A DNA stretch of 64,000 nucleotides, taken from positions 15,272 to 79,271 of the forward strand of contig JAZRAG010000014.1 of the NCBI GenBank assembly GCA_045634445.1, given 5' to 3'. The notes beneath the pieces are model-generated. The model saw nothing but the letters and a program-made list of their open reading frames with translations. It had not been told where the DNA came from and did not search any database. The position numbers were made by a program, and so were the translations under genes. The DNA comes from Candidatus Spyradenecus sp. (lineage in GTDB: Bacteria; Verrucomicrobiota; Kiritimatiellia; RFP12; DVOR01). Positions 10,480 through 20,560 of the stretch are shown piece by piece. Every line of letters begins with the position of its first letter. Within the stretch, counting starts at the first letter, position 1.

Positions 10480-11215
10480 GAAGCGCCTAACAGCTCAAAA
10501 AACTAACCACCAAAATGCGCCCGAGCGCGAAGTGCTGGGCGTGAGCGAAGCGAACCTTCCACGGCTAAAACACACAAAACACACTAAAGGGACGTGGGGG
10601 CTGCGCGCCCCCACTCCCCGCGGCAGGGCTGAGCCCTGCACGGCATGTGTTTAGGAGTGCTCCGCAGGGAAGCCTTCGCACGGGACCTTCGCATTTTCCG
10701 CAAGAACGCTATCTCTTACTCCGCTTGCCCCTCGGCGCAAGAGAAATCCTGCTGCGCAGTCTTCCTCCCGAGGAGGCTACGCGGAGCGCTAAAGCCTTCG
10801 CTGGTTTTCCACGAGTCGCATAGGTCTTACAAGATGCTCGAAATGGGCACATCGTCCCGCTGCCCTTCGGGCCCGGGCGCATCGAGCTCATTTCTCGTCA
10901 TCTTGCGCTGACAAACCATAACATTTGGGAAAGAACTCCAATAATTTACGTAAGCGTTCCGTCGTCATACTCGGGAAGCGGAATGCAAAGCATAACGCTT
11001 CTTGCGCCGAGTTGAGCGACGGAACAAGATTTGCGTTCTTGCGTAAAATTCGTCGTGCTTTTCGCAGTCCTGCGGGCAAAGCCCGCCCAGCCCCGAAGGG
11101 GCGACAGACACATCACGAGATGCGTTGGCTTTTCGTGGGCGAAGCCCTCGTGTTACGAAAAGATCAACGTATCCTAGTGTCCTTAGTGTTAAACCCACTC
11201 GCTGTCCTGCTGCTA
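10480..11215 (+). repeat. Copy A (longest) of a modular intergenic repeat family: CA-rich tract, GC hairpin, conserved blocks
   Basis: Blocks cagaaCTAACCAC, cacaaaacacac, GTGGGGGCtgcgcGCCCCCAC, gtgctccgcagg, ttccacgagtcgca, gctcgaaatgggcacatc, catttctcgtcatcttgcgct and cagccccgaaggggcgacagacacatca-gagatgcgttgg recur in inverted orientation at 20337-20560, and partly at 13093-13190. Confidence 0.5.
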
Positions 11216-13092: not shown

Positions 13093-13190
13093 AACTAAAG
13101 CGAAAAGGAAAGCCTAACATCACAGAAATTAACCACAAAACACACAAAACACACAAAAAATATGTGGGGGCTTCGCGCCCCCACCCCCGT
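13093..13190 (+). repeat. Copy B (5' fragment) of the repeat family: CA-tract plus GC hairpin
   Basis: cagaaactaa...aaccacaaaacacacaaaacacacaaaaaatatGTGGGGGCttcgcGCCCCCAC in the same orientation as copy A. Lies in the sulP promoter region, upstream of the tracrRNA. Confidence 0.5.
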
Positions 13191-13222
13191 TTCATCCCCC
13201 TCTATGTGAACGGCAAATAAAT

Positions 13223-13239
13223 GTCGCCTTTGAGGCGAC
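13223..13239 (-). terminator. Hairpin GTCGCC-tttga-GGCGAC, followed by a U-rich run on the minus strand (possible insulator between the tracrRNA and sulP)
   Basis: Perfect 6-bp stem. The minus strand continues AUUUAUUUG. Confidence 0.3.
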
Positions 13240-13364
13240 CTCTTAGACGCAAAAATATGAGATAGTAGGGGTGAAAGAAATGGAGAAAATAACGGATTTT
13301 TGAGTGTTATTTCGTTGACATCTTGAGTGGTTGTGTTAAAGTATAGATGTAAGGATGGGGGTAT

Positions 13365-13436
13365 AAAAAAGCCCTATACGGAGTACGTATAGGGAAGTCT
13401 TTCGACTGCGGCATATAGCCTTGTTGTGAAAAGACG
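13365..13436 (-). ncRNA. Predicted tracrRNA of the type II-C system (anti-repeat, nexus, terminator); the 5' end may extend to about 13460
   Basis: The minus strand reads (CUAGAAUUAAGCC)GUCUUUUCACAAC-AAGGCUAUAUGCCGCAG-UCGAAAGACUU-CCCUAUACG-uacuc-CGUAUAGGG-CUUUUUU. GUCUUUUCACAAC is a 13/13 complement of the repeat 5' end GUUGUGAAAAGAC. AAGGC..GCCGCA resembles the Neisseria Cas9 nexus. A 9-bp terminator stem is followed by U6. Confidence 0.6.
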
Positions 13437-13441
13437 GCTTA

Positions 13442-13471
13442 ATTCTAGCCCATCGAGGAAATGTTTGTCAA
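13442..13471 (-). promoter_or_regulatory. Candidate sigma70 promoter for the tracrRNA (-35 TTGACA, 18-nt spacer, -10 TAGAAT), divergent from cas9 and overlapping its 5' region
   Basis: Read on the minus strand. The predicted TSS falls at the start of the 13-nt perfect anti-repeat. Confidence 0.35.
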
Positions 13472-13486
13472 TAAGGAATTTTAATT

Positions 13487-16400
13487 ATGAAGCGTTTAGG
13501 GCTTGATTTGGGTACGTCCTCTTTGGGGTGGGCGATTATTGATGATGAGTTAATGAATACTGCGCCTACGGGGTCTGCTGCGCCGAATCCGATTGATTGT
13601 GGTGTTGTTATTTTCCCAGAGGGTATGAACCGTGATAAATCGGATAATTTATCTTCGCCGGCAGCAACGCGTCGTATGGCACGTGCTGCGCGCCGTTTAA
13701 TTTATCGTCGTAAGTTGCGTAAGTTTCACTTGCTTCGTGCGTTGATGGATGCTGGGATGTGTCCTTTGAGTGAAGCGGGGTTAAAAGCATGGAAGGATGA
13801 GGGTAAATACCCTGTGAATGATGAAGCATTTATGCTTTGGCTTCGGTCTACCAATGAAAGTAATCCCTACGCAGACCGCAATGCTGCAGCGACGGCGCCA
13901 GTGGATAAATTAGTTTTGGGACGCGCCCTTTATCATATGGCACAGCGTCGAGGATTTAAGAGTTCTAAAAAAGAGCAGTTTGAAGCTTTGAGCGCGGAAG
14001 ATGTTACTGAACAGAAAGCGAAGAAGGCTTCAGAGGCTACGCAGACAAAGCAGGCGATTGATACATTAACCGCAGAGCTTGAAAAAGAGCATTTGACACT
14101 TGGGCAGTATTTTTATCGCCTTTTCCAGCAGAATGTGAAAGAAATTAATGCGGCAGGTTCTGGCGAAGTAAAGACCGAGCGTGTTCGTGGTCGTAAGACG
14201 GGACGTATTGAACACTATCAAAAAGAATTTGAACGTATTGCTGAGGTTCAAGGCCTTTCAGATGAATTGCGTGAACGTTTTGCTTCAATTCTTTTCTTCC
14301 AGCGTCCGCTTCGTATTCAACGTCATACCGTTGGGTATTGTGCACTTGAGAAAGGTCAGAATGCGCGTAAGTATCGTCGTTGCTTAAAGAGTCATCCTGA
14401 TTTTGAATACTATCGTGCACTTTGTTTCTTGAACAATCTTCGCATTGGTGAAACGTTAGCTTCGGGGAAAGATCGTCTTCAGCGCAATGAAGGCCGACGT
14501 TTAACCGATGAAGAACGTCAAAAGGTGTTAGCCGCTCTTCAGCGTATGAGTTCGTGTACGATTGAAGACCTTTTGGGTAAAAAGAAGCCGTTACTTGACA
14601 AGAAGTACTACACGAATTATCGCCCGAAAGATGATGCGCCAGTGATGGAAATTCGCGCACGTCTGACGGATTTGGGCATTCCTGAAGATAAGTGGCAGAT
14701 GGCATTAAATGCGGCAGTTAACTTTGATGACTTAGAAAAATTACTTGCTTGGGCACAAAAGCCAACAACTTTGGGCCTTTCTGCAGCAGATGCTCGCACA
14801 TTTGTGAAGATTCGCTTCTCTACAGATCGTGCAGATTATAGTTTGCATGCTATTCGCAAGATTATCCCTTATTTAGAGCGTGGATATACCTTGCGTAAAG
14901 CGACTTTCTGTGCAAAATTGGGTGACATCATTCCGAATTATGCAGAAAAACAAGAGGCTGTCCTTCAAGGTTTGTTAGATTGTGAAGCGCGCTATGAAGC
15001 GGAAAAGGAACGTAAAAAGCAAAATCAACGCCTTAAGGTACATCCGCTTGAGGGATATCATTACAAGAATTATTTGGCTACGACTTGGGATGTTTCGGAA
15101 GAAGCATATAAACAATTGTATGTGGATATTACAGAGACGGATAAGTCTAATCCTGTGTTGCCTCCTGTGGATTTAGAGTCTATTCGTAATCCGCTCGCTT
15201 GCCGTTCGCTAACGGTTTTGCGTCGTCTCGTTAACACCCTTCGCGCAAATGGTAAAATTGATGGGGATACGAACATCTTTATTGAGTTGGCACATACGGT
15301 GAATAGTGCAAATCAGTGCCGTGCGATTGAGATGTATCAGTTAGAGCAAAAGAAGAAGCGCGAAGAGGCAGTCCTGAAACTTCAGGAAATTATTCAAGAG
15401 CACAATCTTAAGATTGCGATTAACGAAGACTCTATTTTGCGTTACATTCTTTGGCAAGAGCAGAATGGTTGTTGCGTTTATACCGGTCAATCGATTGGCT
15501 TAAAGGCAATGCTGACGGAGTGTGATATTGAACATACAATTCCGCGTTCGCGTGGCGGTACAAATGAACTTGATAACCTCACACTTTGCACCAGCCATTA
15601 CAATCGCAATGTGAAGAAAGGAAAAATCCCAACGGAGTGTCCGAATGCCTCCGAAGAGTGGTATGACCCTGAAACAAAGATGACTTATCCTGCACTTGAA
15701 TTAAGCACACCGATTAAGAATTGGAAAGATGAACTTCAAAAGCTTAGGAAAGAGTTGGACAAAAAGCCTAAGCGTGGGGGTGACATCTCGGCTTATAATG
15801 ACGCACGTAAGCGTTGGCTTGTGAAGCAGATGAAGTGTACCTATTTGAAAAAGAAACTTAAATCATTTGAACTCTCTGCCGAAACTGTAGGTGGCGATGG
15901 CTTCATGCCACGTCAAATGGTTGACACAGGCATTATTACCACACAGGCTGTGAAATTCTTAAAGAGCCGCTATGAATATGTCTTTACGCGTAATGGCGCG
16001 GTAACCGCAGCTGCGCGTAAGGCTTGGGGAATCCAACACGAAGATGAAAAGAAGTCTCGTATTGATCATGTCCATCACGCAGTAGATGCATGTGTGATTG
16101 CGGCATTGGATACGAAAGCTTTCACGGATATTTGTTCTCAATTGGGTAAAGACGAAACCTTTACGCGTTGGAATACCGTTGTTTGTGAGCCTTATCCAGA
16201 CTTTGCACAACGCGTGAATGATGCAACCGAAAGCATTTTGGTACGCCACCTTCCTACGAATCGCCAGACCAAACCGATTGATAAGCGCCGTCAACGTATC
16301 CCGTTGTCGGTTGTGAAACGCCTTAAACAAGCACAATTATCCTCTGCAAAGGCAAAAAAGACATCGACCATCCGCGGTAGTCTCCATAATGATACGATTT

Positions 16401-17173
16401 ATGGAAAGATAAAGCTGAATGGTGAAGAAGTTGTCGTGCTCCGTAAGACAATTACAGCAGCAGGTACAGACTTTAAGAAGTGGGTGACACAAGGCAATGT
16501 CGTTGACAAAGGCGTTTGCGATGCACTACGAGCGCAAATCGCTGCTTATGAAGCGCAAGGCATTGCAGAAAAGGATTTGCCTAACCAAGTCTATAAAATG
16601 CCATCGGGTATTCCCATTAAGAAAATCCGTATTAAGGTGGCAAAACCCAAAAATCCTGATGCGATTCGTCAACAAGTCTTTGTACCCAAAGCGCCTGTTT
16701 ATGGCTCAGGAAGCGACATCCTTGGATTTAATGTCTGTAAAGATGCGAAGGGTAAACTTGTCGCAGAGCAGATCTCTTTGCTTGATGAGGCAAAGTCTTT
16801 CGGAGAAGGGATGTCTTCTGTGGACAAGTGTTTCAGCATCTATCCCATGCAACTTGCTTTCGCATATGAAAAGACTCCAGAAGAATTAAAGGCGCTTTCT
16901 TCCCGAGAATTGATGAAACGATTGTATGTCGTACGTCAAGTGGAAGAAGGTCAAGTCACATTTTACTATCACCGAGAAGCGAGAAGAGCGAAATTGCTTG
17001 CTGAAGAGTTAGAGAAAAACGGAAAGTCAAAAAAAGGTGAGTCTAAATTAAACTTCATTATCCCAGAGCGGAAACTACGAGTTGCAAGAGGTGTATTCTT
17101 AGACCACATGCTTTATGAAGGGGTTCACTTTACACTTTCAATGGATGGTGAGGTAGAATGGCTCAATGATTAA
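13487..17173 (+). CDS. cas9: Cas9 (type II-C), 1228 aa
   Basis: RuvC-I MKRLGLDLGTSSLGWAII. Arg-rich bridge helix (RRMARAARRLIYRRKLRK). HNH (DIEHTIPRSRGGTNELDNLTLCTSHYNRNV). RuvC-III (HHAVDACVIAAL). RBS aagga 9 nt upstream. Confidence 0.95.
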   Translation: MKRLGLDLGTSSLGWAIIDDELMNTAPTGSAAPNPIDCGVVIFPEGMNRDKSDNLSSPAATRRMARAARRLIYRRKLRKFHLLRALMDAGMCPLSEAGLKAWKDEGKYPVNDEAFMLWLRSTNESNPYADRNAAATAPVDKLVLGRALYHMAQRRGFKSSKKEQFEALSAEDVTEQKAKKASEATQTKQAIDTLTAELEKEHLTLGQYFYRLFQQNVKEINAAGSGEVKTERVRGRKTGRIEHYQKEFERIAEVQGLSDELRERFASILFFQRPLRIQRHTVGYCALEKGQNARKYRRCLKSHPDFEYYRALCFLNNLRIGETLASGKDRLQRNEGRRLTDEERQKVLAALQRMSSCTIEDLLGKKKPLLDKKYYTNYRPKDDAPVMEIRARLTDLGIPEDKWQMALNAAVNFDDLEKLLAWAQKPTTLGLSAADARTFVKIRFSTDRADYSLHAIRKIIPYLERGYTLRKATFCAKLGDIIPNYAEKQEAVLQGLLDCEARYEAEKERKKQNQRLKVHPLEGYHYKNYLATTWDVSEEAYKQLYVDITETDKSNPVLPPVDLESIRNPLACRSLTVLRRLVNTLRANGKIDGDTNIFIELAHTVNSANQCRAIEMYQLEQKKKREEAVLKLQEIIQEHNLKIAINEDSILRYILWQEQNGCCVYTGQSIGLKAMLTECDIEHTIPRSRGGTNELDNLTLCTSHYNRNVKKGKIPTECPNASEEWYDPETKMTYPALELSTPIKNWKDELQKLRKELDKKPKRGGDISAYNDARKRWLVKQMKCTYLKKKLKSFELSAETVGGDGFMPRQMVDTGIITTQAVKFLKSRYEYVFTRNGAVTAAARKAWGIQHEDEKKSRIDHVHHAVDACVIAALDTKAFTDICSQLGKDETFTRWNTVVCEPYPDFAQRVNDATESILVRHLPTNRQTKPIDKRRQRIPLSVVKRLKQAQLSSAKAKKTSTIRGSLHNDTIYGKIKLNGEEVVVLRKTITAAGTDFKKWVTQGNVVDKGVCDALRAQIAAYEAQGIAEKDLPNQVYKMPSGIPIKKIRIKVAKPKNPDAIRQQVFVPKAPVYGSGSDILGFNVCKDAKGKLVAEQISLLDEAKSFGEGMSSVDKCFSIYPMQLAFAYEKTPEELKALSSRELMKRLYVVRQVEEGQVTFYYHREARRAKLLAEELEKNGKSKKGESKLNFIIPERKLRVARGVFLDHMLYEGVHFTLSMDGEVEWLND

Positions 17174-18071
17174 ACGGACGCTTTGCTTCTCAACTCCAGG
17201 AAAACTCCGTCTTCACTTGCGCCAACTTCTTTGGTGTGGTGAAGATGGAAGAGAAGCAAGTGTGCCCATCGAAGATCTTGGGATTGTCATCTTAGAGTCC
17301 CCCTTAATCACTGTCAGTATGGCGCTATTACAAGCGCTAACAGAGGCATGTGTCGCGGTTGTCCTCTGTGATGCGTCCCATCTCCCTTCAGGCTATCTCC
17401 TTCCACAAGTATCACATACCCTTGCGAGTCGCTTTTTGAGAAATCAAATTGAACTTACAGATGCTCAATCGAGGCGCTTGTGGCAACAAATTGTTATCCG
17501 TAAAATCCAAAATCAAGCGTCTGTAATTCGGACATTAAATCCGCAAAAGGCGAACGAATTATGTGAGATGGCAGAGTTTGTTAAACGAGGAGATGTCACA
17601 AATATTGAAGCGCAAGCTGCGAAACTCTATTTTACGGCTTTTCCAATTTCAGAAGATGTCTTTCATCGTTCGCGTTATGGTACCATGCCTAATGCGGCAT
17701 TAAACTATGGATATGCGATTTTAAGAGCCGCAGTCGCACGATGTTTAGTAGCCTCAGGATTGAACACCACCTTAGGAATCCATCATCGTAATCAATATAA
17801 CCACTTTTGCCTTGCAGATGATGTGATGGAGCCCTATCGTCCCTTTGTAGATGCAATCGTCTTAGAGCATTTAGAGGCGTTCGAGAAAGCAGAAGAACCT
17901 ACGCAAGTCTCCACAAAAGGAAAGCAAATCCTCTTGCCGTTCTTGACAATGGATGTGCGAATAGGAGAATCAACGCGACCTCTTTTTAACGCCCTTCAAT
18001 TAACCACAGCATCTCTCGCACGATGTATCTGTAATGAACAAAAAACGCTCGAATTACCATCATTCCCATGA
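17166..18071 (+). CDS. cas1: Cas1 integrase
   Basis: Overlaps cas9 by 8 nt. Cas1-like conserved acidic and His residues. Position between cas9 and cas2. Confidence 0.9.
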   Translation: MIKRTLCFSTPGKLRLHLRQLLWCGEDGREASVPIEDLGIVILESPLITVSMALLQALTEACVAVVLCDASHLPSGYLLPQVSHTLASRFLRNQIELTDAQSRRLWQQIVIRKIQNQASVIRTLNPQKANELCEMAEFVKRGDVTNIEAQAAKLYFTAFPISEDVFHRSRYGTMPNAALNYGYAILRAAVARCLVASGLNTTLGIHHRNQYNHFCLADDVMEPYRPFVDAIVLEHLEAFEKAEEPTQVSTKGKQILLPFLTMDVRIGESTRPLFNALQLTTASLARCICNEQKTLELPSFP

Positions 18072-18415
18072 GTGAAGTTGAGTTTACAGCGATTAACCAT
18101 TACAAAGCAATGTGGCTTTACGCACTCTTTGATCTCCCAACAGAAACTAAACGGCAACGAAAAGCCGCTGCACAGTTTCGTAAAGGCCTCTTGCAAGATG
18201 GCTTTACAATGCTTCAATTTTCTGTGTATATTCGCCATTGTGCATCAAGAGAAAATGCAGAAGTTCACATTAAGCGCGTGAGAATGATAACACCAGAAGA
18301 GGGGCGTGTTGCGATTCTTGCGGTAACGGATAGACAATTCGATCAAATGGTCATTCTTTACGGGAAAAAAGAAAAACCTGCGCCACCTGCGCCAGTTCAA
18401 CTAGAACTTTTTTAA
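18068..18415 (+). CDS. cas2: Cas2
   Basis: 115 aa. Overlaps cas1 by 4 nt. Immediately precedes the array. Confidence 0.85.
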   Translation: MSEVEFTAINHYKAMWLYALFDLPTETKRQRKAAAQFRKGLLQDGFTMLQFSVYIRHCASRENAEVHIKRVRMITPEEGRVAILAVTDRQFDQMVILYGKKEKPAPPAPVQLELF

Positions 18416-18463
18416 ACAAAAAAAGAAACCGATTGACTCTTTTTTGAAGAAATCAATCGGTTT
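18416..18463 (-). terminator. Strong minus-strand intrinsic terminator between cas2 and the array; it would stop antisense pre-crRNA read-through
   Basis: Minus strand reads GAAACCGAUUGA-(16-nt loop)-UCAAUCGGUUUC followed by UUUUUUUGUUU. On the plus strand the same hairpin has no U-tract. Confidence 0.6.
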
Positions 18464-18477
18464 CTAAGTCTTCGGTA

Positions 18478-18498
18478 TGCTCCTTAAGATGTTATACA
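18478..18498. repeat. Inverted partial copy (18/21) of the CRISPR repeat, 21 bp from the first repeat: a hairpin partner, anti-repeat-like element
   Basis: ctccttaagatgttatacaat versus cttcttaagatttgatacaat (the reverse complement of the repeat's first 21 nt), with a 19-nt gap to the repeat at 18520. Confidence 0.5.
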
Positions 18499-18519
18499 AT
18501 AAAGACTTATGCATTCAAT

Positions 18520-20336
18520 ATTGTATCAAATCTTAAGAAGATGTCTTTTCACAACTCTCAAGCGGATTGACGTTACATCTCCAAAATTGTATCAAATCTT
18601 AAGAAGATGTCTTTTCACAACTGTACTTTACTAACATTAAGTGTCAGATTGATTGTATCAAATCTTAAGAAGATGTCTTTTCACAACTCTATATTGTTTA
18701 GTTTTGCAATCTCTTTGATTGTATCAAATCTTAAGAAGATGTCTTTTCACAACTGGCGGCCATTGAGACCTTCCGTCGTCAGAATTGTATCAAATCTTAA
18801 GAAGATGTCTTTTCACAACAACCTTCTTCAAGAATAGATTTAGAAACTTATTGTATCAAATCTTAAGAAGATGTCTTTTCACAACTGAAGAAGCGTATTC
18901 TTATGTTTGTTCTCAATTGTATCAAATCTTAAGAAGATGTCTTTTCACAACTCCTTTAGTCTATTCAACTGTTCAACGAGAATTGTATCAAATCTTAAGA
19001 AGATGTCTTTTCACAACACTTTGAACATTATCAATGTTTCGCAGACTATTGTATCAAATCTTAAGAAGATGTCTTTTCACAACTTCCGTTTAGCTGCGCT
19101 TTTCCTCTCTTCCATTGTATCAAATCTTAAGAAGATGTCTTTTCACAACACGAAAACCCAGAAGCAATCTTTTAAAGAATTGTATCAAATCTTAAGAAGA
19201 TGTCTTTTCACAACTCCGAACGGGAAAAAATGGTTTCAATCGTAATTGTATCAAATCTTAAGAAGATGTCTTTTCACAACCGTTATTTCAGCACTTTCTC
19301 GCGGTTTTGAATTGTATCAAATCTTAAGAAGATGTCTTTTCACAACTTTTAGTTCACAAACAGGAACATTAAAAGGATTGTATCAAATCTTAAGAAGATG
19401 TCTTTTCACAACCTATCTGCCTTTCCCTGGGTCTAGTTATGAATTGTATCAAATCTTAAGAAGATGTCTTTTCACAACTATAACTGGTATGCTGCTTGGT
19501 GCGGTGTCATTGTATCAAATCTTAAGAAGATGTCTTTTCACAACCTAAAACCCAGAAGCAATCTTTTAAAGAGAATTGTATCAAATCTTAAGAAGATGTC
19601 TTTTCACAACTGCAGTATCGCGTGCCGATGCTGGAGGCGGATTGTATCAAATCTTAAGAAGATGTCTTTTCACAACACCGCCCGAAGCAGTAATCGAAGC
19701 TAGTGCATTGTATCAAATCTTAAGAAGATGTCTTTTCACAACTGCGCTTGTAGCCATTGGTGGGATCAGCCAATTGTATCAAATCTTAAGAAGATGTCTT
19801 TTCACAACCACCGGCTCAAGATTGCGCGTGCTTTAGGGATTGTATCAAATCTTAAGAAGATGTCTTTTCACAACCTCCGGTGGCCCCATCTACCGCCTCG
19901 CCATATTGTATCAAATCTTAAGAAGATGTCTTTTCACAACATACCGACGTTGATTTCAATCAGTGTCCGGATTGTATCAAATCTTAAGAAGATGTCTTTT
20001 CACAACAATTGATGAATGTTGATATTTCAGATATTAATTGTATCAAATCTTAAGAAGATGTCTTTTCACAACAATCAGTTGGTATACAGGTTCTGGAATC
20101 GCATTGTATCAAATCTTAAGAAGATGTCTTTTCACAACAAAATATACTCGCAATACACAAAAGACCCTATTGTATCAAATCTTAAGAAGATGTCTTTTCA
20201 CAACTATCATGGCGACAATTAAAACAACAATAGCATTGTATCAAATCTTAAGAAGATGTCTTTTCACAACTACTGACGCGTTTAATTATATTTGTTCACA
20301 ATTGTATCAAATCTTAAGAAGATGTCTTTTCACAAC
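18520..20336 (-). CRISPR. CRISPR array: 28 copies of a 36-bp repeat (GTTGTGAAAAGACATCTTCTTAAGATTTGATACAAT in the inferred crRNA sense) and 27 spacers of 29-30 bp
   Basis: Exact 66-bp periodicity. All repeats are identical. The orientation call (minus strand) rests on the GTTGT...ACAAT termini, an extended -10 TGATACAAT at the repeat 3' end, the anti-repeat of the upstream tracrRNA, and the minus-strand terminator at 18416-18463. Confidence 0.95.
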
Positions 20337-20560
20337 CAACGCATCTCTTGATGTGTCTGTCGCCCCTTTGGGGCTGGAAAAGCGCGAGCGCAAGATGACG
20401 AGAAATGGAGATGTGCCCATTTCGAGCAGCGTGCAAGATTCGTGCGACTCGTGGAAATCCCTCGTCGTCCTGCGGAGCACCTTTTTGTGTGTTTTGTGTT
20501 TTTTGTGGTTAGTTTCTGTGCCGTCAGGCACTCGTATCCTGTGGTTTATTTCCTCACGTG
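20337..20560 (-). repeat. Copy C of the repeat family (inverted relative to A and B), abutting the terminal CRISPR repeat
   Basis: The reverse complement aligns block-for-block with copy A (cagaaactaaccac...cacaaaacacac, gtgctccgcagg, ttccacgagtcgca, gctcgaaatgggcacatc, catttctcgtcatcttgcgct, cagcccc-aaggggcgacagacacatcaagagatgcgttgg). The gcgttgg end lies 0 bp from the repeat. Confidence 0.5.

What the first reader, a model, noticed from the sequence alone, without database searches (positions are those of the whole stretch)
19150..19574. Spacer pairs derived from the same or homologous protospacers (spacers 10 and 16; spacers 6 and 27)
Spacer 10 (acgAAAACCCAGAAGCAATCTTTTAAAGA, 29 nt) and spacer 16 (ctAAAACCCAGAAGCAATCTTTTAAAGAga) share an identical 26-nt core. 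The register is shifted by 1-2 nt and the flanking bases differ, which suggests independent acquisitions from nearly the same site of related targets. Spacer 6 (tgaagaagcgtattcttatgtttgttctca, 18886-18915) and spacer 27 (tactgacgcgtttaattatatttgttcaca, 20271-20300) are 20/30 identical in register, as if taken from the homologous site of two diverged relatives of one mobile element. Repeated sampling of one target family points to recurrent encounters, or primed-like re-acquisition, and gives handles for PAM inference.
Basis: seen in the sequence. Interest (0 to 1): 0.5.

Follow-up and report, generated by a model that had tools for sequence, protein, structure and literature searches.

The report
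Re-sampled phage targets in CRISPR array
Two pairs of spacers in a type II-C CRISPR array of an uncultured gut bacterium were taken from the same, or a homologous, site of an unknown invader; this is a real but already well-documented trace of repeated encounters with variant invaders.

Summary
The array (18520-20336) has 28 identical 36-nt repeats and 27 spacers. Spacers 10 and 16 match at 27 of 28 overlapping bases. Their ends are offset by 1 nt on one side and 2 nt on the other, and they differ at one base. That match is significant within this array (p about 0.006) but much weaker.

The locus is a chromosomal type II-C system (cas9-cas1-cas2-array) in a Kiritimatiellia-like genome. A conserved tracrRNA, promoters inside the repeats and a terminator show that crRNAs are made from the minus strand. 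The 10/16 mismatch therefore lies 2-3 nt from the PAM end, in the seed. Sister arrays show that new spacers enter next to cas2, so spacer 10 is newer than 16.

The best reading is two independent acquisitions of one site from two variants of one invader. A sister array (L014) shows the same pattern. Unit duplication is excluded, because the true duplicates seen in these arrays are exact and in register, and four of the five are adjacent.

No protospacer was found in any collection, so the target, the PAM and any priming remain untested. The same pattern is already described in Legionella (PMC5071653). Interest is low.

The parts
18520..20336 (-). CRISPR array with 28 identical 36-nt repeats and 27 spacers. 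crRNAs are read from the minus strand, where the repeat is GTTGTGAAAAGACATCTTCTTAAGATTTGATACAAT.
   Evidence: Exact repeat extraction and TRF. On the minus strand every repeat ends in an extended -10 box, TGATACAAT. The tracrRNA anti-repeat is complementary to the 5' end of the minus-strand repeat.
19150..19178 (-). Spacer 10 (29 nt), the newer copy of the shared site. crRNA sense is TCTTTAAAAGATTGCTTCTGGGTTTTCGT. The variant base G19152 (C in crRNA sense) is the 3rd nt from the PAM-proximal end.
   Evidence: Orientation. Relative age from the polarity seen in sister arrays.
19545..19574 (-). Spacer 16 (30 nt), the older copy of the shared site. crRNA sense is TCTCTTTAAAAGATTGCTTCTGGGTTTTAG. 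The variant base T19546 (A in crRNA sense) is the 2nd nt from the PAM-proximal end.
18886..18915 (-). Spacer 6, 21/30 identical in register to spacer 27. It is the newer of the two.
20271..20300 (-). Spacer 27, the cas2-distal and therefore oldest spacer. It is the diverged counterpart of spacer 6, with mismatches at PAM-proximal positions 2, 3, 4, 7, 12, 14, 15, 20 and 28.
13487..17173 (+). cas9 (1228 aa).
   Evidence: TIGR01865 scores 380 bits against a cut-off of 100. Homologues carry the HNH and RuvC_III Pfam domains. Among solved Cas9 structures it matches only over the HNH region, E about 1e-22.
17166..18071 (+). cas1, of the type II (NMENI) class.
   Evidence: TIGR03639 scores 266 bits against a cut-off of 120.
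18068..18415 (+). cas2.
   Evidence: TIGR01573 scores 70 bits.
13366..13471 (-). Predicted tracrRNA gene. Promoter TTGACA-18-TAGAAT at 13471-13442. 13-nt anti-repeat GTCTTTTCACAAC at 13435-13423, followed by AAGGCTATATGCC (nexus-like). Terminator hairpin at 13394-13372 plus a T run.
   Evidence: Duplex scan, sequence, promoter and terminator scan, cofold at -41 kcal/mol with a perfect 13-bp duplex, uniqueness in the window. It is conserved in seven loci of two lineages from the anti-repeat onward, and the terminator stem shows compensatory changes.
18416..18519 (.). cas2-array junction, which is the functional leader (acquisition end). It holds a minus-strand intrinsic terminator (hairpin 18424-18465 followed by a T run) and an inverted copy of the first ~21 nt of the repeat (18480-18500) that can pair with repeat 1.
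   Evidence: 88% conserved in L001-L006 and L012, while the distal flank is not conserved. Folds. Polarity.

Best explanation
Spacers 10 and 16 are two separate Cas1-Cas2 integrations of the same protospacer. They were taken at different times from two variants of one unknown invader that differ by a single base.

The array belongs to a Neisseria-like type II-C system. crRNAs are transcribed from the minus strand by promoters inside each repeat. New spacers enter at the cas2-proximal end, which is the downstream end with respect to transcription. Spacer 16 is therefore the older memory and spacer 10 the newer one. In crRNA orientation the single difference lies 2 nt (sp16) or 3 nt (sp10) from the PAM-proximal end. 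That is inside the seed and next to the expected Cas9 cut site, so neither guide should efficiently cleave the other variant.

The most likely sequence of events is as follows. The host was immunised by spacer 16. A variant carrying a seed mismatch, either an escape mutant or a co-circulating allele, was then met. The same favoured site was sampled again, with the 1-nt imprecision that also produces the roughly 15% of 29-nt spacers seen in this repeat family.

Spacers 27 (oldest) and 6 (newer) are most likely the same kind of event at greater divergence: the homologous, probably protein-coding, site of two more distant relatives, sampled in the same register because the PAM position is conserved.

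Shown here: the sequences, the boundaries, the orientation, the polarity in sister arrays, and the exclusion of duplication. Inferred: that the SNP was in the target rather than arising in the array, that it affects cleavage, and that the site is PAM-defined.
For: Sequence identity and offsets. Beyond chance.

Type II-C gene content.

Minus-strand crRNA: a 13-nt perfect anti-repeat sits in a conserved tracrRNA with its own promoter and terminator. TGATACAAT promoter-like boxes occur in all 28 repeats on the minus strand. A minus-strand terminator lies between the array and cas2.

Polarity: the sister arrays L013 and L014 share the cas2-distal 27 spacers, differ only at the cas2-proximal end, and have a degenerate distal terminal repeat. 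L011's distal terminal repeat is the one variant repeat in that array. The cas2-array junction is conserved while the distal flank is not. The literature reports 3'-end acquisition and repeat-embedded promoters for II-C (PMC12638026; PMC12477760).

Parallel case: in L014 the newest spacer (sp1, 15084-15113) differs from its own sp6 (15413-15442) by one base at PAM-proximal position 5, 29/30 in register.

Same-site sampling between strains: L013 sp9 vs L016 sp5, 26/30 in register.

Length variation: 29-nt spacers make up about 14-15% of this family.

sp6/27: the peptides in the shared open frame +2 are conservative (BLOSUM62 score 32; 4.6% of random 9-mismatch variants do as well).

Precedent: in the Legionella type I-C array, overlapping spacer pairs have an older member mismatched in the seed or PAM (PMC5071653).
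Against: No protospacer was found anywhere, so the existence of two target alleles, of a PAM, and of the 1-nt slip relative to the PAM are all unverified.

Polarity in the window's own lineage rests on sister arrays and on flank conservation. It was not shown by a strain that shares part of this particular array.

The seed bias rests on two pairs only (about 0.03 under a uniform position model).

The 1-nt shift at the PAM-proximal end means that one of the two spacers may lack a correctly spaced PAM and may be poorly functional.

For sp6/27, a score of 12 is only just above the chance tail (10-11) in the pooled set of 229 spacers, and the mismatches are not concentrated at third codon positions.
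Confidence: 0.65

Rival explanations
1. Primed re-acquisition. The older spacer 16, imperfectly matched to a variant target, actively recruited the adaptation machinery through Cas9 binding or cutting, so that the new spacer 10 was taken from the very same site.
For: In both within-array pairs the older spacer would mismatch the newer one's target in the seed (window 10/16; L014 sp1/sp6). Priming-like behaviour has been reported for type II-A (PMC8265633, listed). Rao et al. proposed the same reading for their overlapping pairs (PMC5071653).
Against: Priming as known in type I and II-A enriches new spacers near the primed site, not on it. Cas9 cleavage would cut the protospacer in two. In-register same-site pairs also occur between different strains (L013 sp9 / L016 sp5), where no priming spacer is shared, so a hot spot alone is sufficient. 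Nothing here tests dependence on the older spacer.
Confidence: 0.12
2. One target allele only. The same site was sampled twice, with a 1-nt slip, and the single base difference arose later by mutation of one spacer inside the array.
For: The different boundaries show two integrations but say nothing about where the SNP arose. No target sequence is available to decide the question.
Against: All 28 repeats (1008 nt) are free of mutations, which argues for a young or well-maintained array. The identical pattern in L014 would need a second such mutation, again in the seed.
Confidence: 0.1
3. Intra-array duplication of a repeat-spacer unit, by slippage or recombination, followed by divergence.
For: Unit duplications do occur in these arrays: L003 sp32=33, L011 sp1=18, the '47 47' pair in L020/L021 and the '71 71' pair in L019-L021. 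Kupczok et al. report 1-11% duplicated spacers (PMC4524480).
Against: Those duplicates are exact and in register, and all but L011 sp1=18 are adjacent. Spacers 10 and 16 are five spacers apart, differ in length and differ at both boundaries (+1 and -2 nt), while all flanking repeats are intact. Duplication would require three extra events exactly at the repeat junctions.
Confidence: 0.03
4. The sp6/sp27 similarity is chance resemblance between two AT-rich spacers.
For: In the pooled set of 229 spacers the chance scores reach 10-11 against 12 here. 4 of 700 shuffles of the window's own spacers reach 12. The mismatches are not biased towards the third codon position (positions; codon phase worked out by hand).
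Against: The match is exactly in register, in the same orientation and over the full length, giving a Bonferroni-corrected binomial of 2e-4 to 2e-3. The next best pair within this array scores 5. The peptide pair is conservative in a shared open frame. A clearer analogue exists between strains (26/30).
Confidence: 0.15
5. Assembly artefact. The window comes from a metagenome-assembled genome, and spacers from two co-existing strain variants were stitched into one array.
For: The closest Cas9 record is a contig of a metagenome-derived genome. CRISPR arrays are hard to assemble. L004 has an N gap, L015 collapses to one repeat, and L011 sp1=18 may be an assembly loop.
Against: Five unique spacers lie between the two copies, and the array is regular with no gaps or partial units. 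Each spacer plus both flanking repeats spans 102 nt, which is short enough to be bridged by ordinary reads or k-mers. The L014 pair comes from an independent assembly.
Confidence: 0.05

Closest known systems
Overlapping spacer pairs against LME-1 in the Legionella pneumophila type I-C array (Rao et al. 2016, PMC5071653)
   Same: Two spacers in one array cover the same or an overlapping protospacer. The older spacer carries a seed or PAM mismatch relative to the variant matched by the newer one. The authors read this as repeated invasion by closely related elements, possibly with priming.
   Different: That system is type I-C with a known target and PAM. Here the system is type II-C, the target and PAM are unknown, and acquisition is at the transcriptionally downstream end.
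Neisseria meningitidis type II-C CRISPR-Cas9 (repeat-embedded promoters, leader at the downstream end; PMC12477760, PMC12638026)
   Same: Same gene order (cas9-cas1-cas2-array), 36-nt repeats of the form GTTGT...ACAAT, and 30-nt spacers. An extended -10 box lies at the end of every repeat. The array is transcribed towards the leader-adjacent repeat, and new spacers enter at that end.
   Different: Cas9 is 1228 aa and aligns with NmeCas9 structures only over the HNH region. The tracrRNA anti-repeat is only 13 nt, and the middle of the repeat can form its own hairpin. The PAM is unknown. The host is a Kiritimatiellia-like gut bacterium.
Biased or independent re-acquisition of the same spacer, and duplicated spacers in arrays (Kupczok et al. 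2015, PMC4524480)
   Same: Independent acquisition of the same protospacer through biased sampling, and repeat-spacer unit duplications, are both recognised sources of similar spacers within and between arrays.
   Different: The window pair is not identical. It is a shifted copy with a seed SNP, which points to two target alleles rather than one.
Slipped (±1 nt) spacers and primed adaptation in type I and type II-A systems (own knowledge; S. mutans II-A priming, PMC8265633)
   Same: There is a 1-nt offset of the PAM-proximal boundary between two spacers from one site, and more than one spacer against one invader.
   Different: Whether the shift is a slip relative to a single PAM, or reflects two usable PAM registers, cannot be told without the protospacer. 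Known priming gives neighbouring protospacers, not identical ones.

Membership tests
Type II-C CRISPR-Cas | cas9 with HNH and RuvC domains is present. | tested here: met
   TIGR01865 scores 380 bits. Homologues carry PF13395 and PF18541.
Type II-C CRISPR-Cas | Only cas1 and cas2 accompany cas9, with no csn2 (II-A) and no cas4 (II-B). | tested here: met
   cas9, cas1 and cas2 overlap or abut from 13487 to 18415, and the array starts at 18520. The flanking genes are a SulP-family transporter and purA. No room is left for another gene.
Type II-C CRISPR-Cas | A tracrRNA with an anti-repeat complementary to the repeat. | tested here: met
   A 13-nt perfect anti-repeat is followed by a nexus-like hairpin and a terminator, has its own promoter, and is conserved in two lineages. 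Expression was not tested.
Neisseria-like II-C arrays | Repeat-embedded promoters, with the array transcribed towards the acquisition end. | tested here: met
   TGATACAAT lies at the end of each of the 28 repeats on the minus strand. A minus-strand terminator lies beyond repeat 1. Growth at the cas2-proximal end is seen in L013 vs L014. This is consensus-level evidence only, with no RNA data.
Re-acquisition of one protospacer from variant invaders (arms-race signature) | Two spacers in one array overlap the same sequence but have independent boundaries. | tested here: met
   27/28 identity, offsets of +1 and -2 nt, lengths of 29 and 30 nt, and perfect flanking repeats.
Re-acquisition of one protospacer from variant invaders (arms-race signature) | The difference lies in the seed or PAM, so that the older guide fails on the newer allele. 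| tested here: inconclusive
   The position is PAM-proximal nt 2-3 given the inferred orientation. The effect on cleavage was not tested and the PAM is unknown.
Re-acquisition of one protospacer from variant invaders (arms-race signature) | Both target alleles exist in invaders from the habitat, each with a PAM. | not testable with these tools
   No protospacer was found in phages, plasmids, IMG/VR, JGI metagenomes or GTDB genomes. The ENA and Logan assemblies that hold the relatives cannot be searched by nucleotide sequence here.
Primed adaptation | Acquisition depends on a pre-existing, partially matching spacer, and new spacers cluster around the primed site. | not testable with these tools
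   This needs the target map or an experiment. The between-strain same-site pair shows that priming is not required.
Repeat-spacer unit duplication | The copies are in register with identical boundaries, and usually adjacent. | tested here: not met
   The boundaries differ at both ends and five spacers lie between the copies. By contrast, L003 32=33 and the '47 47' and '71 71' pairs are exact, adjacent and in register; L011 1=18 is exact and in register but not adjacent.

The most novel reading that the evidence does not exclude
In this type II-C clade an old spacer whose guide still binds a seed-mismatched target, but no longer cuts it, might direct Cas9 to hand that very protospacer to Cas1-Cas2. 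This would be an 'in-place update' of a memory rather than priming of neighbouring sites. It would explain why, in both within-array cases (window 10/16, L014 sp1/sp6), the newer spacer is the same site with a single seed change. It would connect with the recent finding that Cas9 itself selects spacers and regulates their acquisition in II-C (PMC12477760).
Probability: 0.08. Interest if true: 0.6.

Novelty: new member of a known kind. Interest (0 to 1): 0.2.

Why it matters
The pair is a small, clean natural record of an arms race. One site of an unknown invader was sampled twice, and the two memories differ at a seed position. It shows that this uncharacterised Kiritimatiellia type II-C system has acquired spacers repeatedly from a limited set of sites. 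Once the invader is found in ruminant-gut data, the pair gives a ready-made test (two alleles, two guides) for the seed and PAM rules of a Cas9 that is distant from any characterised one. It does not reveal a new mechanism, since the same pattern has been described in Legionella and is expected from biased spacer sampling.

Tried and rejected
1. Protospacer searches all came back empty.
   - The whole array against cultured phages and against plasmids by blastn gave only chance hits with E of 0.6 or more.
   - The 26-nt core was searched in IMG/VR, JGI metagenomes and GTDB genomes.
   - A degenerate sp6/27 consensus was searched in IMG/VR.
   - A back-translated pattern for one reading frame of sp10/16 was searched.
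   - 22-mers of spacers 1, 2, 13, 23 and 25 were searched in IMG/VR.
   - Arrays of related strains were searched against phages.
   - All 229 family spacers were searched against the window and every fetched locus, which gave only chance matches of 15 nt or less and no self-targets.

2. I considered finding protospacers through the protein index, using 9-10-aa spacer translations as queries.

3. Exact look-ups of the window's own Cas9 and Cas2 found nothing. A Cas9-based scan of GTDB genomes found no relative. As a result no strain sharing part of this particular array was obtained.

4. I first considered crRNA on the plus strand, with the inverted partial repeat at 18480-18500 as the anti-repeat. 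I rejected this because that element has no downstream tracrRNA body. The conserved tracrRNA upstream of cas9, the repeat promoters and the terminator all point to the minus strand.

5. I considered type VI-B, which also has a 36-nt repeat ending in CACAAC and 30-nt spacers. I rejected it once cas9, cas1 and cas2 were identified.

6. Rfam at gathering threshold found nothing in the window.
Full report
**1. What is there**

Exact matching of the repeat ATTGTATCAAATCTTAAGAAGATGTCTTTTCACAAC finds 28 identical copies between 18520 and 20336. They separate 27 spacers, 26 of 30 nt and one (spacer 10) of 29 nt.

Spacer 10 (19150-19178, ACGAAAACCCAGAAGCAATCTTTTAAAGA) and spacer 16 (19545-19574, CTAAAACCCAGAAGCAATCTTTTAAAGAGA) align without gaps at 27 of 28 positions. 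The exact core is 26 nt and the single mismatch is G19152 against T19546. Spacer 10 reaches 1 nt further at the low-coordinate end, and spacer 16 reaches 2 nt further at the high-coordinate end.

Spacer 6 (18886-18915) and spacer 27 (20271-20300) are 21/30 identical in register.

In 700 composition-preserving shuffles of the 27 spacers, the best pair at any shift or orientation never exceeded a score of 12. The 10/16 pair scores 26. The 6/27 pair scores 12, a value reached in 4 of the 700 shuffles. For the in-register case, the binomial tail multiplied by 351 pairs is 2e-4 to 2e-3. The first pair is therefore certain. The second is probably real but less secure.

**2. The system**

Immediately upstream lie cas9 (13487-17173, TIGR01865 380 bits), a type II cas1 (17166-18071) and cas2 (18068-18415). 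Housekeeping genes flank the locus: a SulP-family transporter on the left, and purA and uppS on the right. There is no csn2 or cas4. This is a chromosomal type II-C locus.

The closest Cas9 proteins come from metagenome assemblies, and the named relatives are Kiritimatiellia. Several of the relatives' contigs come from two large metagenome sample sets (XIEF21-1, LIUQ22-1). That these are ruminant-gut samples is my own reading of the sample names. Solved Cas9 structures, including NmeCas9, match only across the HNH region, so the PAM cannot be borrowed from a characterised enzyme.

**3. Orientation**

A scan for complementarity to the repeat found a perfect 13-nt anti-repeat, GTCTTTTCACAAC, on the minus strand just upstream of cas9 at 13435-13423. 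An 11/12 sigma-70 promoter precedes it (TTGACA-18-TAGAAT). AAGGCTATATGCC, a second small hairpin and an intrinsic terminator follow it.

This roughly 70-nt tracrRNA is conserved in seven loci from two lineages. Conservation starts exactly at the anti-repeat, and the terminator stem shows compensatory changes. It pairs with the 5' end of the minus-strand repeat, GTTGTGAAAAGAC.

On the minus strand every repeat also ends in an extended -10 box, TGATACAAT. A strong minus-strand terminator lies between repeat 1 and cas2. crRNAs are therefore made from the minus strand, as in Neisseria meningitidis. There, crRNAs start inside each spacer from repeat-embedded promoters (PMC12477760). The PAM-proximal end of each spacer is thus its low-coordinate end.

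**4. Polarity**

No strain sharing part of this particular array was found. Relatives with about 90% nucleotide identity across the cas genes (L003, L004, L009, L011, L012) carry entirely different spacers.

A sister lineage (Cas9 69% identical, same architecture and same repeat termini) decides the issue. Arrays L013 and L014 share their 27 cas2-distal spacers and differ only next to cas2. The distal terminal repeat is degenerate.

In the window's own lineage, the cas2-array junction is 88% conserved across seven loci while the distal flank is not conserved. L011's distal terminal repeat is the one variant repeat in that array.

This agrees with reports that II-C arrays grow at the transcriptionally downstream end (PMC12638026; PMC12477760). 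Spacer 1 is therefore the newest and spacer 27 the oldest. Spacer 16 predates spacer 10, and spacer 27 predates spacer 6.

**5. Reading the pairs**

In crRNA sense, spacer 16 is TCTCTTTAAAAGATTGCTTCTGGGTTTTAG and spacer 10 is TCTTTAAAAGATTGCTTCTGGGTTTTCGT. The single difference is at the 2nd (sp16) or 3rd (sp10) nucleotide from the PAM end. That is the seed, next to the expected cut site.

The 2-nt difference at the PAM-distal end probably falls outside the mature guide, if transcription starts a few nucleotides into the spacer as it does in Neisseria (an inference).

The different boundaries and lengths, with perfect repeats on all sides, require two separate integrations. True unit duplications do exist in these arrays. 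They are exact and in register, and four of the five are adjacent:
- L003 sp32=33 (adjacent);
- the '47 47' pair in L020 and L021 (adjacent);
- the '71 71' pair in L019-L021 (adjacent);
- L011 sp1=18, which is not adjacent and may be an assembly effect.

The ±1-nt imprecision is normal for this family, in which about 15% of spacers are 29 nt.

The same pattern recurs independently. In L014 the newest spacer (sp1, TTATTTCAAT...) is identical to its own sp6 (TTATCTCAAT...) except at PAM-proximal position 5. Under a uniform model, both sole mismatches falling within the first five positions has a probability of about 0.03. That is suggestive and no more.

Same-site sampling is also seen between strains: L013 sp9 and L016 sp5 match at 26/30 in register. 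A favoured site alone can therefore produce such pairs without priming.

For spacers 6 and 27, the nine mismatches include PAM-proximal positions 2, 3, 4 and 7, so the two guides cannot cross-react. Only two reading frames are open in both spacers. In one of them the peptides EEAYSYVCS and TDAFNYICS are conservative (BLOSUM62 score 32; 4.6% of random 9-mismatch variants do as well). That fits a homologous coding site in diverged relatives. The support is modest, however, and in the pooled 229-spacer set chance scores reach 10-11 against 12 here.

**6. What could not be done**

No protospacer was found for any spacer of this array or of related arrays. I searched cultured phages, plasmids, IMG/VR, JGI metagenomes, GTDB genomes, the window and all fetched loci.

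The target, the PAM, the existence of two target alleles and any role of priming therefore remain untested. The assemblies that hold the relatives (ENA, Logan) cannot be searched by nucleotide sequence with these tools. A protein-index workaround was shown by simulation to be impractical.

**7. Comparison and verdict**

The phenomenon is known. Rao et al. described two pairs of overlapping spacers in a Legionella type I-C array. In each pair the older member is mismatched in the seed or PAM and the newer one is a perfect match. They read this as repeated invasion, possibly with priming (PMC5071653). Independent acquisition of the same spacer and spacer duplication are standard items in analyses of array evolution (PMC4524480).

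What is new here is only the setting: an uncharacterised type II-C system in an uncultured Kiritimatiellia-like bacterium. The finding is real, and its main interpretation is the best available one. It is ordinary, so interest is low.

The most novel reading not excluded is that a seed-mismatched old guide directs re-acquisition of the very same site. It rests on two cases and has a simpler alternative.

Noticed in passing
window 13112-13159 and 20482-20529; also 10567-10618, 10803-10853, 11087-11127, 13137-13188, 13219-13272, 20337-20460: A 48-nt inverted repeat (90% complementary) brackets the whole tracrRNA-cas9-cas1-cas2-array cassette. Its core, TTTTGTGGTTARTTTCTGTG, occurs only at these two sites in the 64 kb. 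Other pieces of the array-distal flank recur, inverted, to the left of the sulP gene. Related strains share only 13315-18519 plus the array, and their flanking genes differ in three separate contexts. Segment 13219-13272 lies beyond the distal end of the array in L009 and L011. The cassette may be mobile, or may sit in a recombination-prone repeat family.
   Followed up: partly
window 18475-18555 (leader plus repeat 1); the same region in L001, L003, L013 and L025: The conserved cas2-array junction contains an inverted copy of the first ~21 nt of the repeat (18480-18500), which can form a hairpin with repeat 1 on either strand. The pairing co-varies with the repeat sequence across lineages: CTTAAG/CTTAAG in the window family and CCTCTT/AAGAGG in the sister lineage. 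It may be a leader-repeat recognition element or an RNA hairpin.
   Followed up: partly
window 13366-13438 (minus strand) and all repeats: The tracrRNA anti-repeat is unusually short, at 13 nt. The middle of the repeat can form its own small hairpin: ATCTT-CTT-AAGAT here, ACCTT-YTT-AAGGT in L001, L003 and L009, and TCCC-TCTT-GGGA in the sister lineage. The stem is kept by compensatory changes while the first 13 and last 12 nt of the repeat stay invariant.
   Followed up: partly
L009 13687-15582 and L010: One related lineage has cas9 followed directly by the array. cas1 and cas2 are missing, and homology with the window stops at about 17365. Its repeats carry several point variants, as expected for an array that can no longer be renewed.
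   Followed up: no
L003 sp32/33; L019-L021 labels '71 71'; L020/L021 labels '47 47'; L011 sp1=sp18; L015 9760-9795: Exact tandem duplications of repeat-spacer units are frequent in these arrays. One of them ('47 47') is polymorphic between samples. One assembly (L015) shows the array collapsed to the single degenerate terminal repeat, which could be a real deletion or an assembly collapse.
   Followed up: no
window spacers 17-21 (19611-19904): Five consecutive spacers have 57-70% G+C, against 20-50% for almost all the others (spacer 4 is the exception at 60%). This suggests a burst of acquisitions from a different, GC-rich element at one period of the array's history.
   Followed up: no
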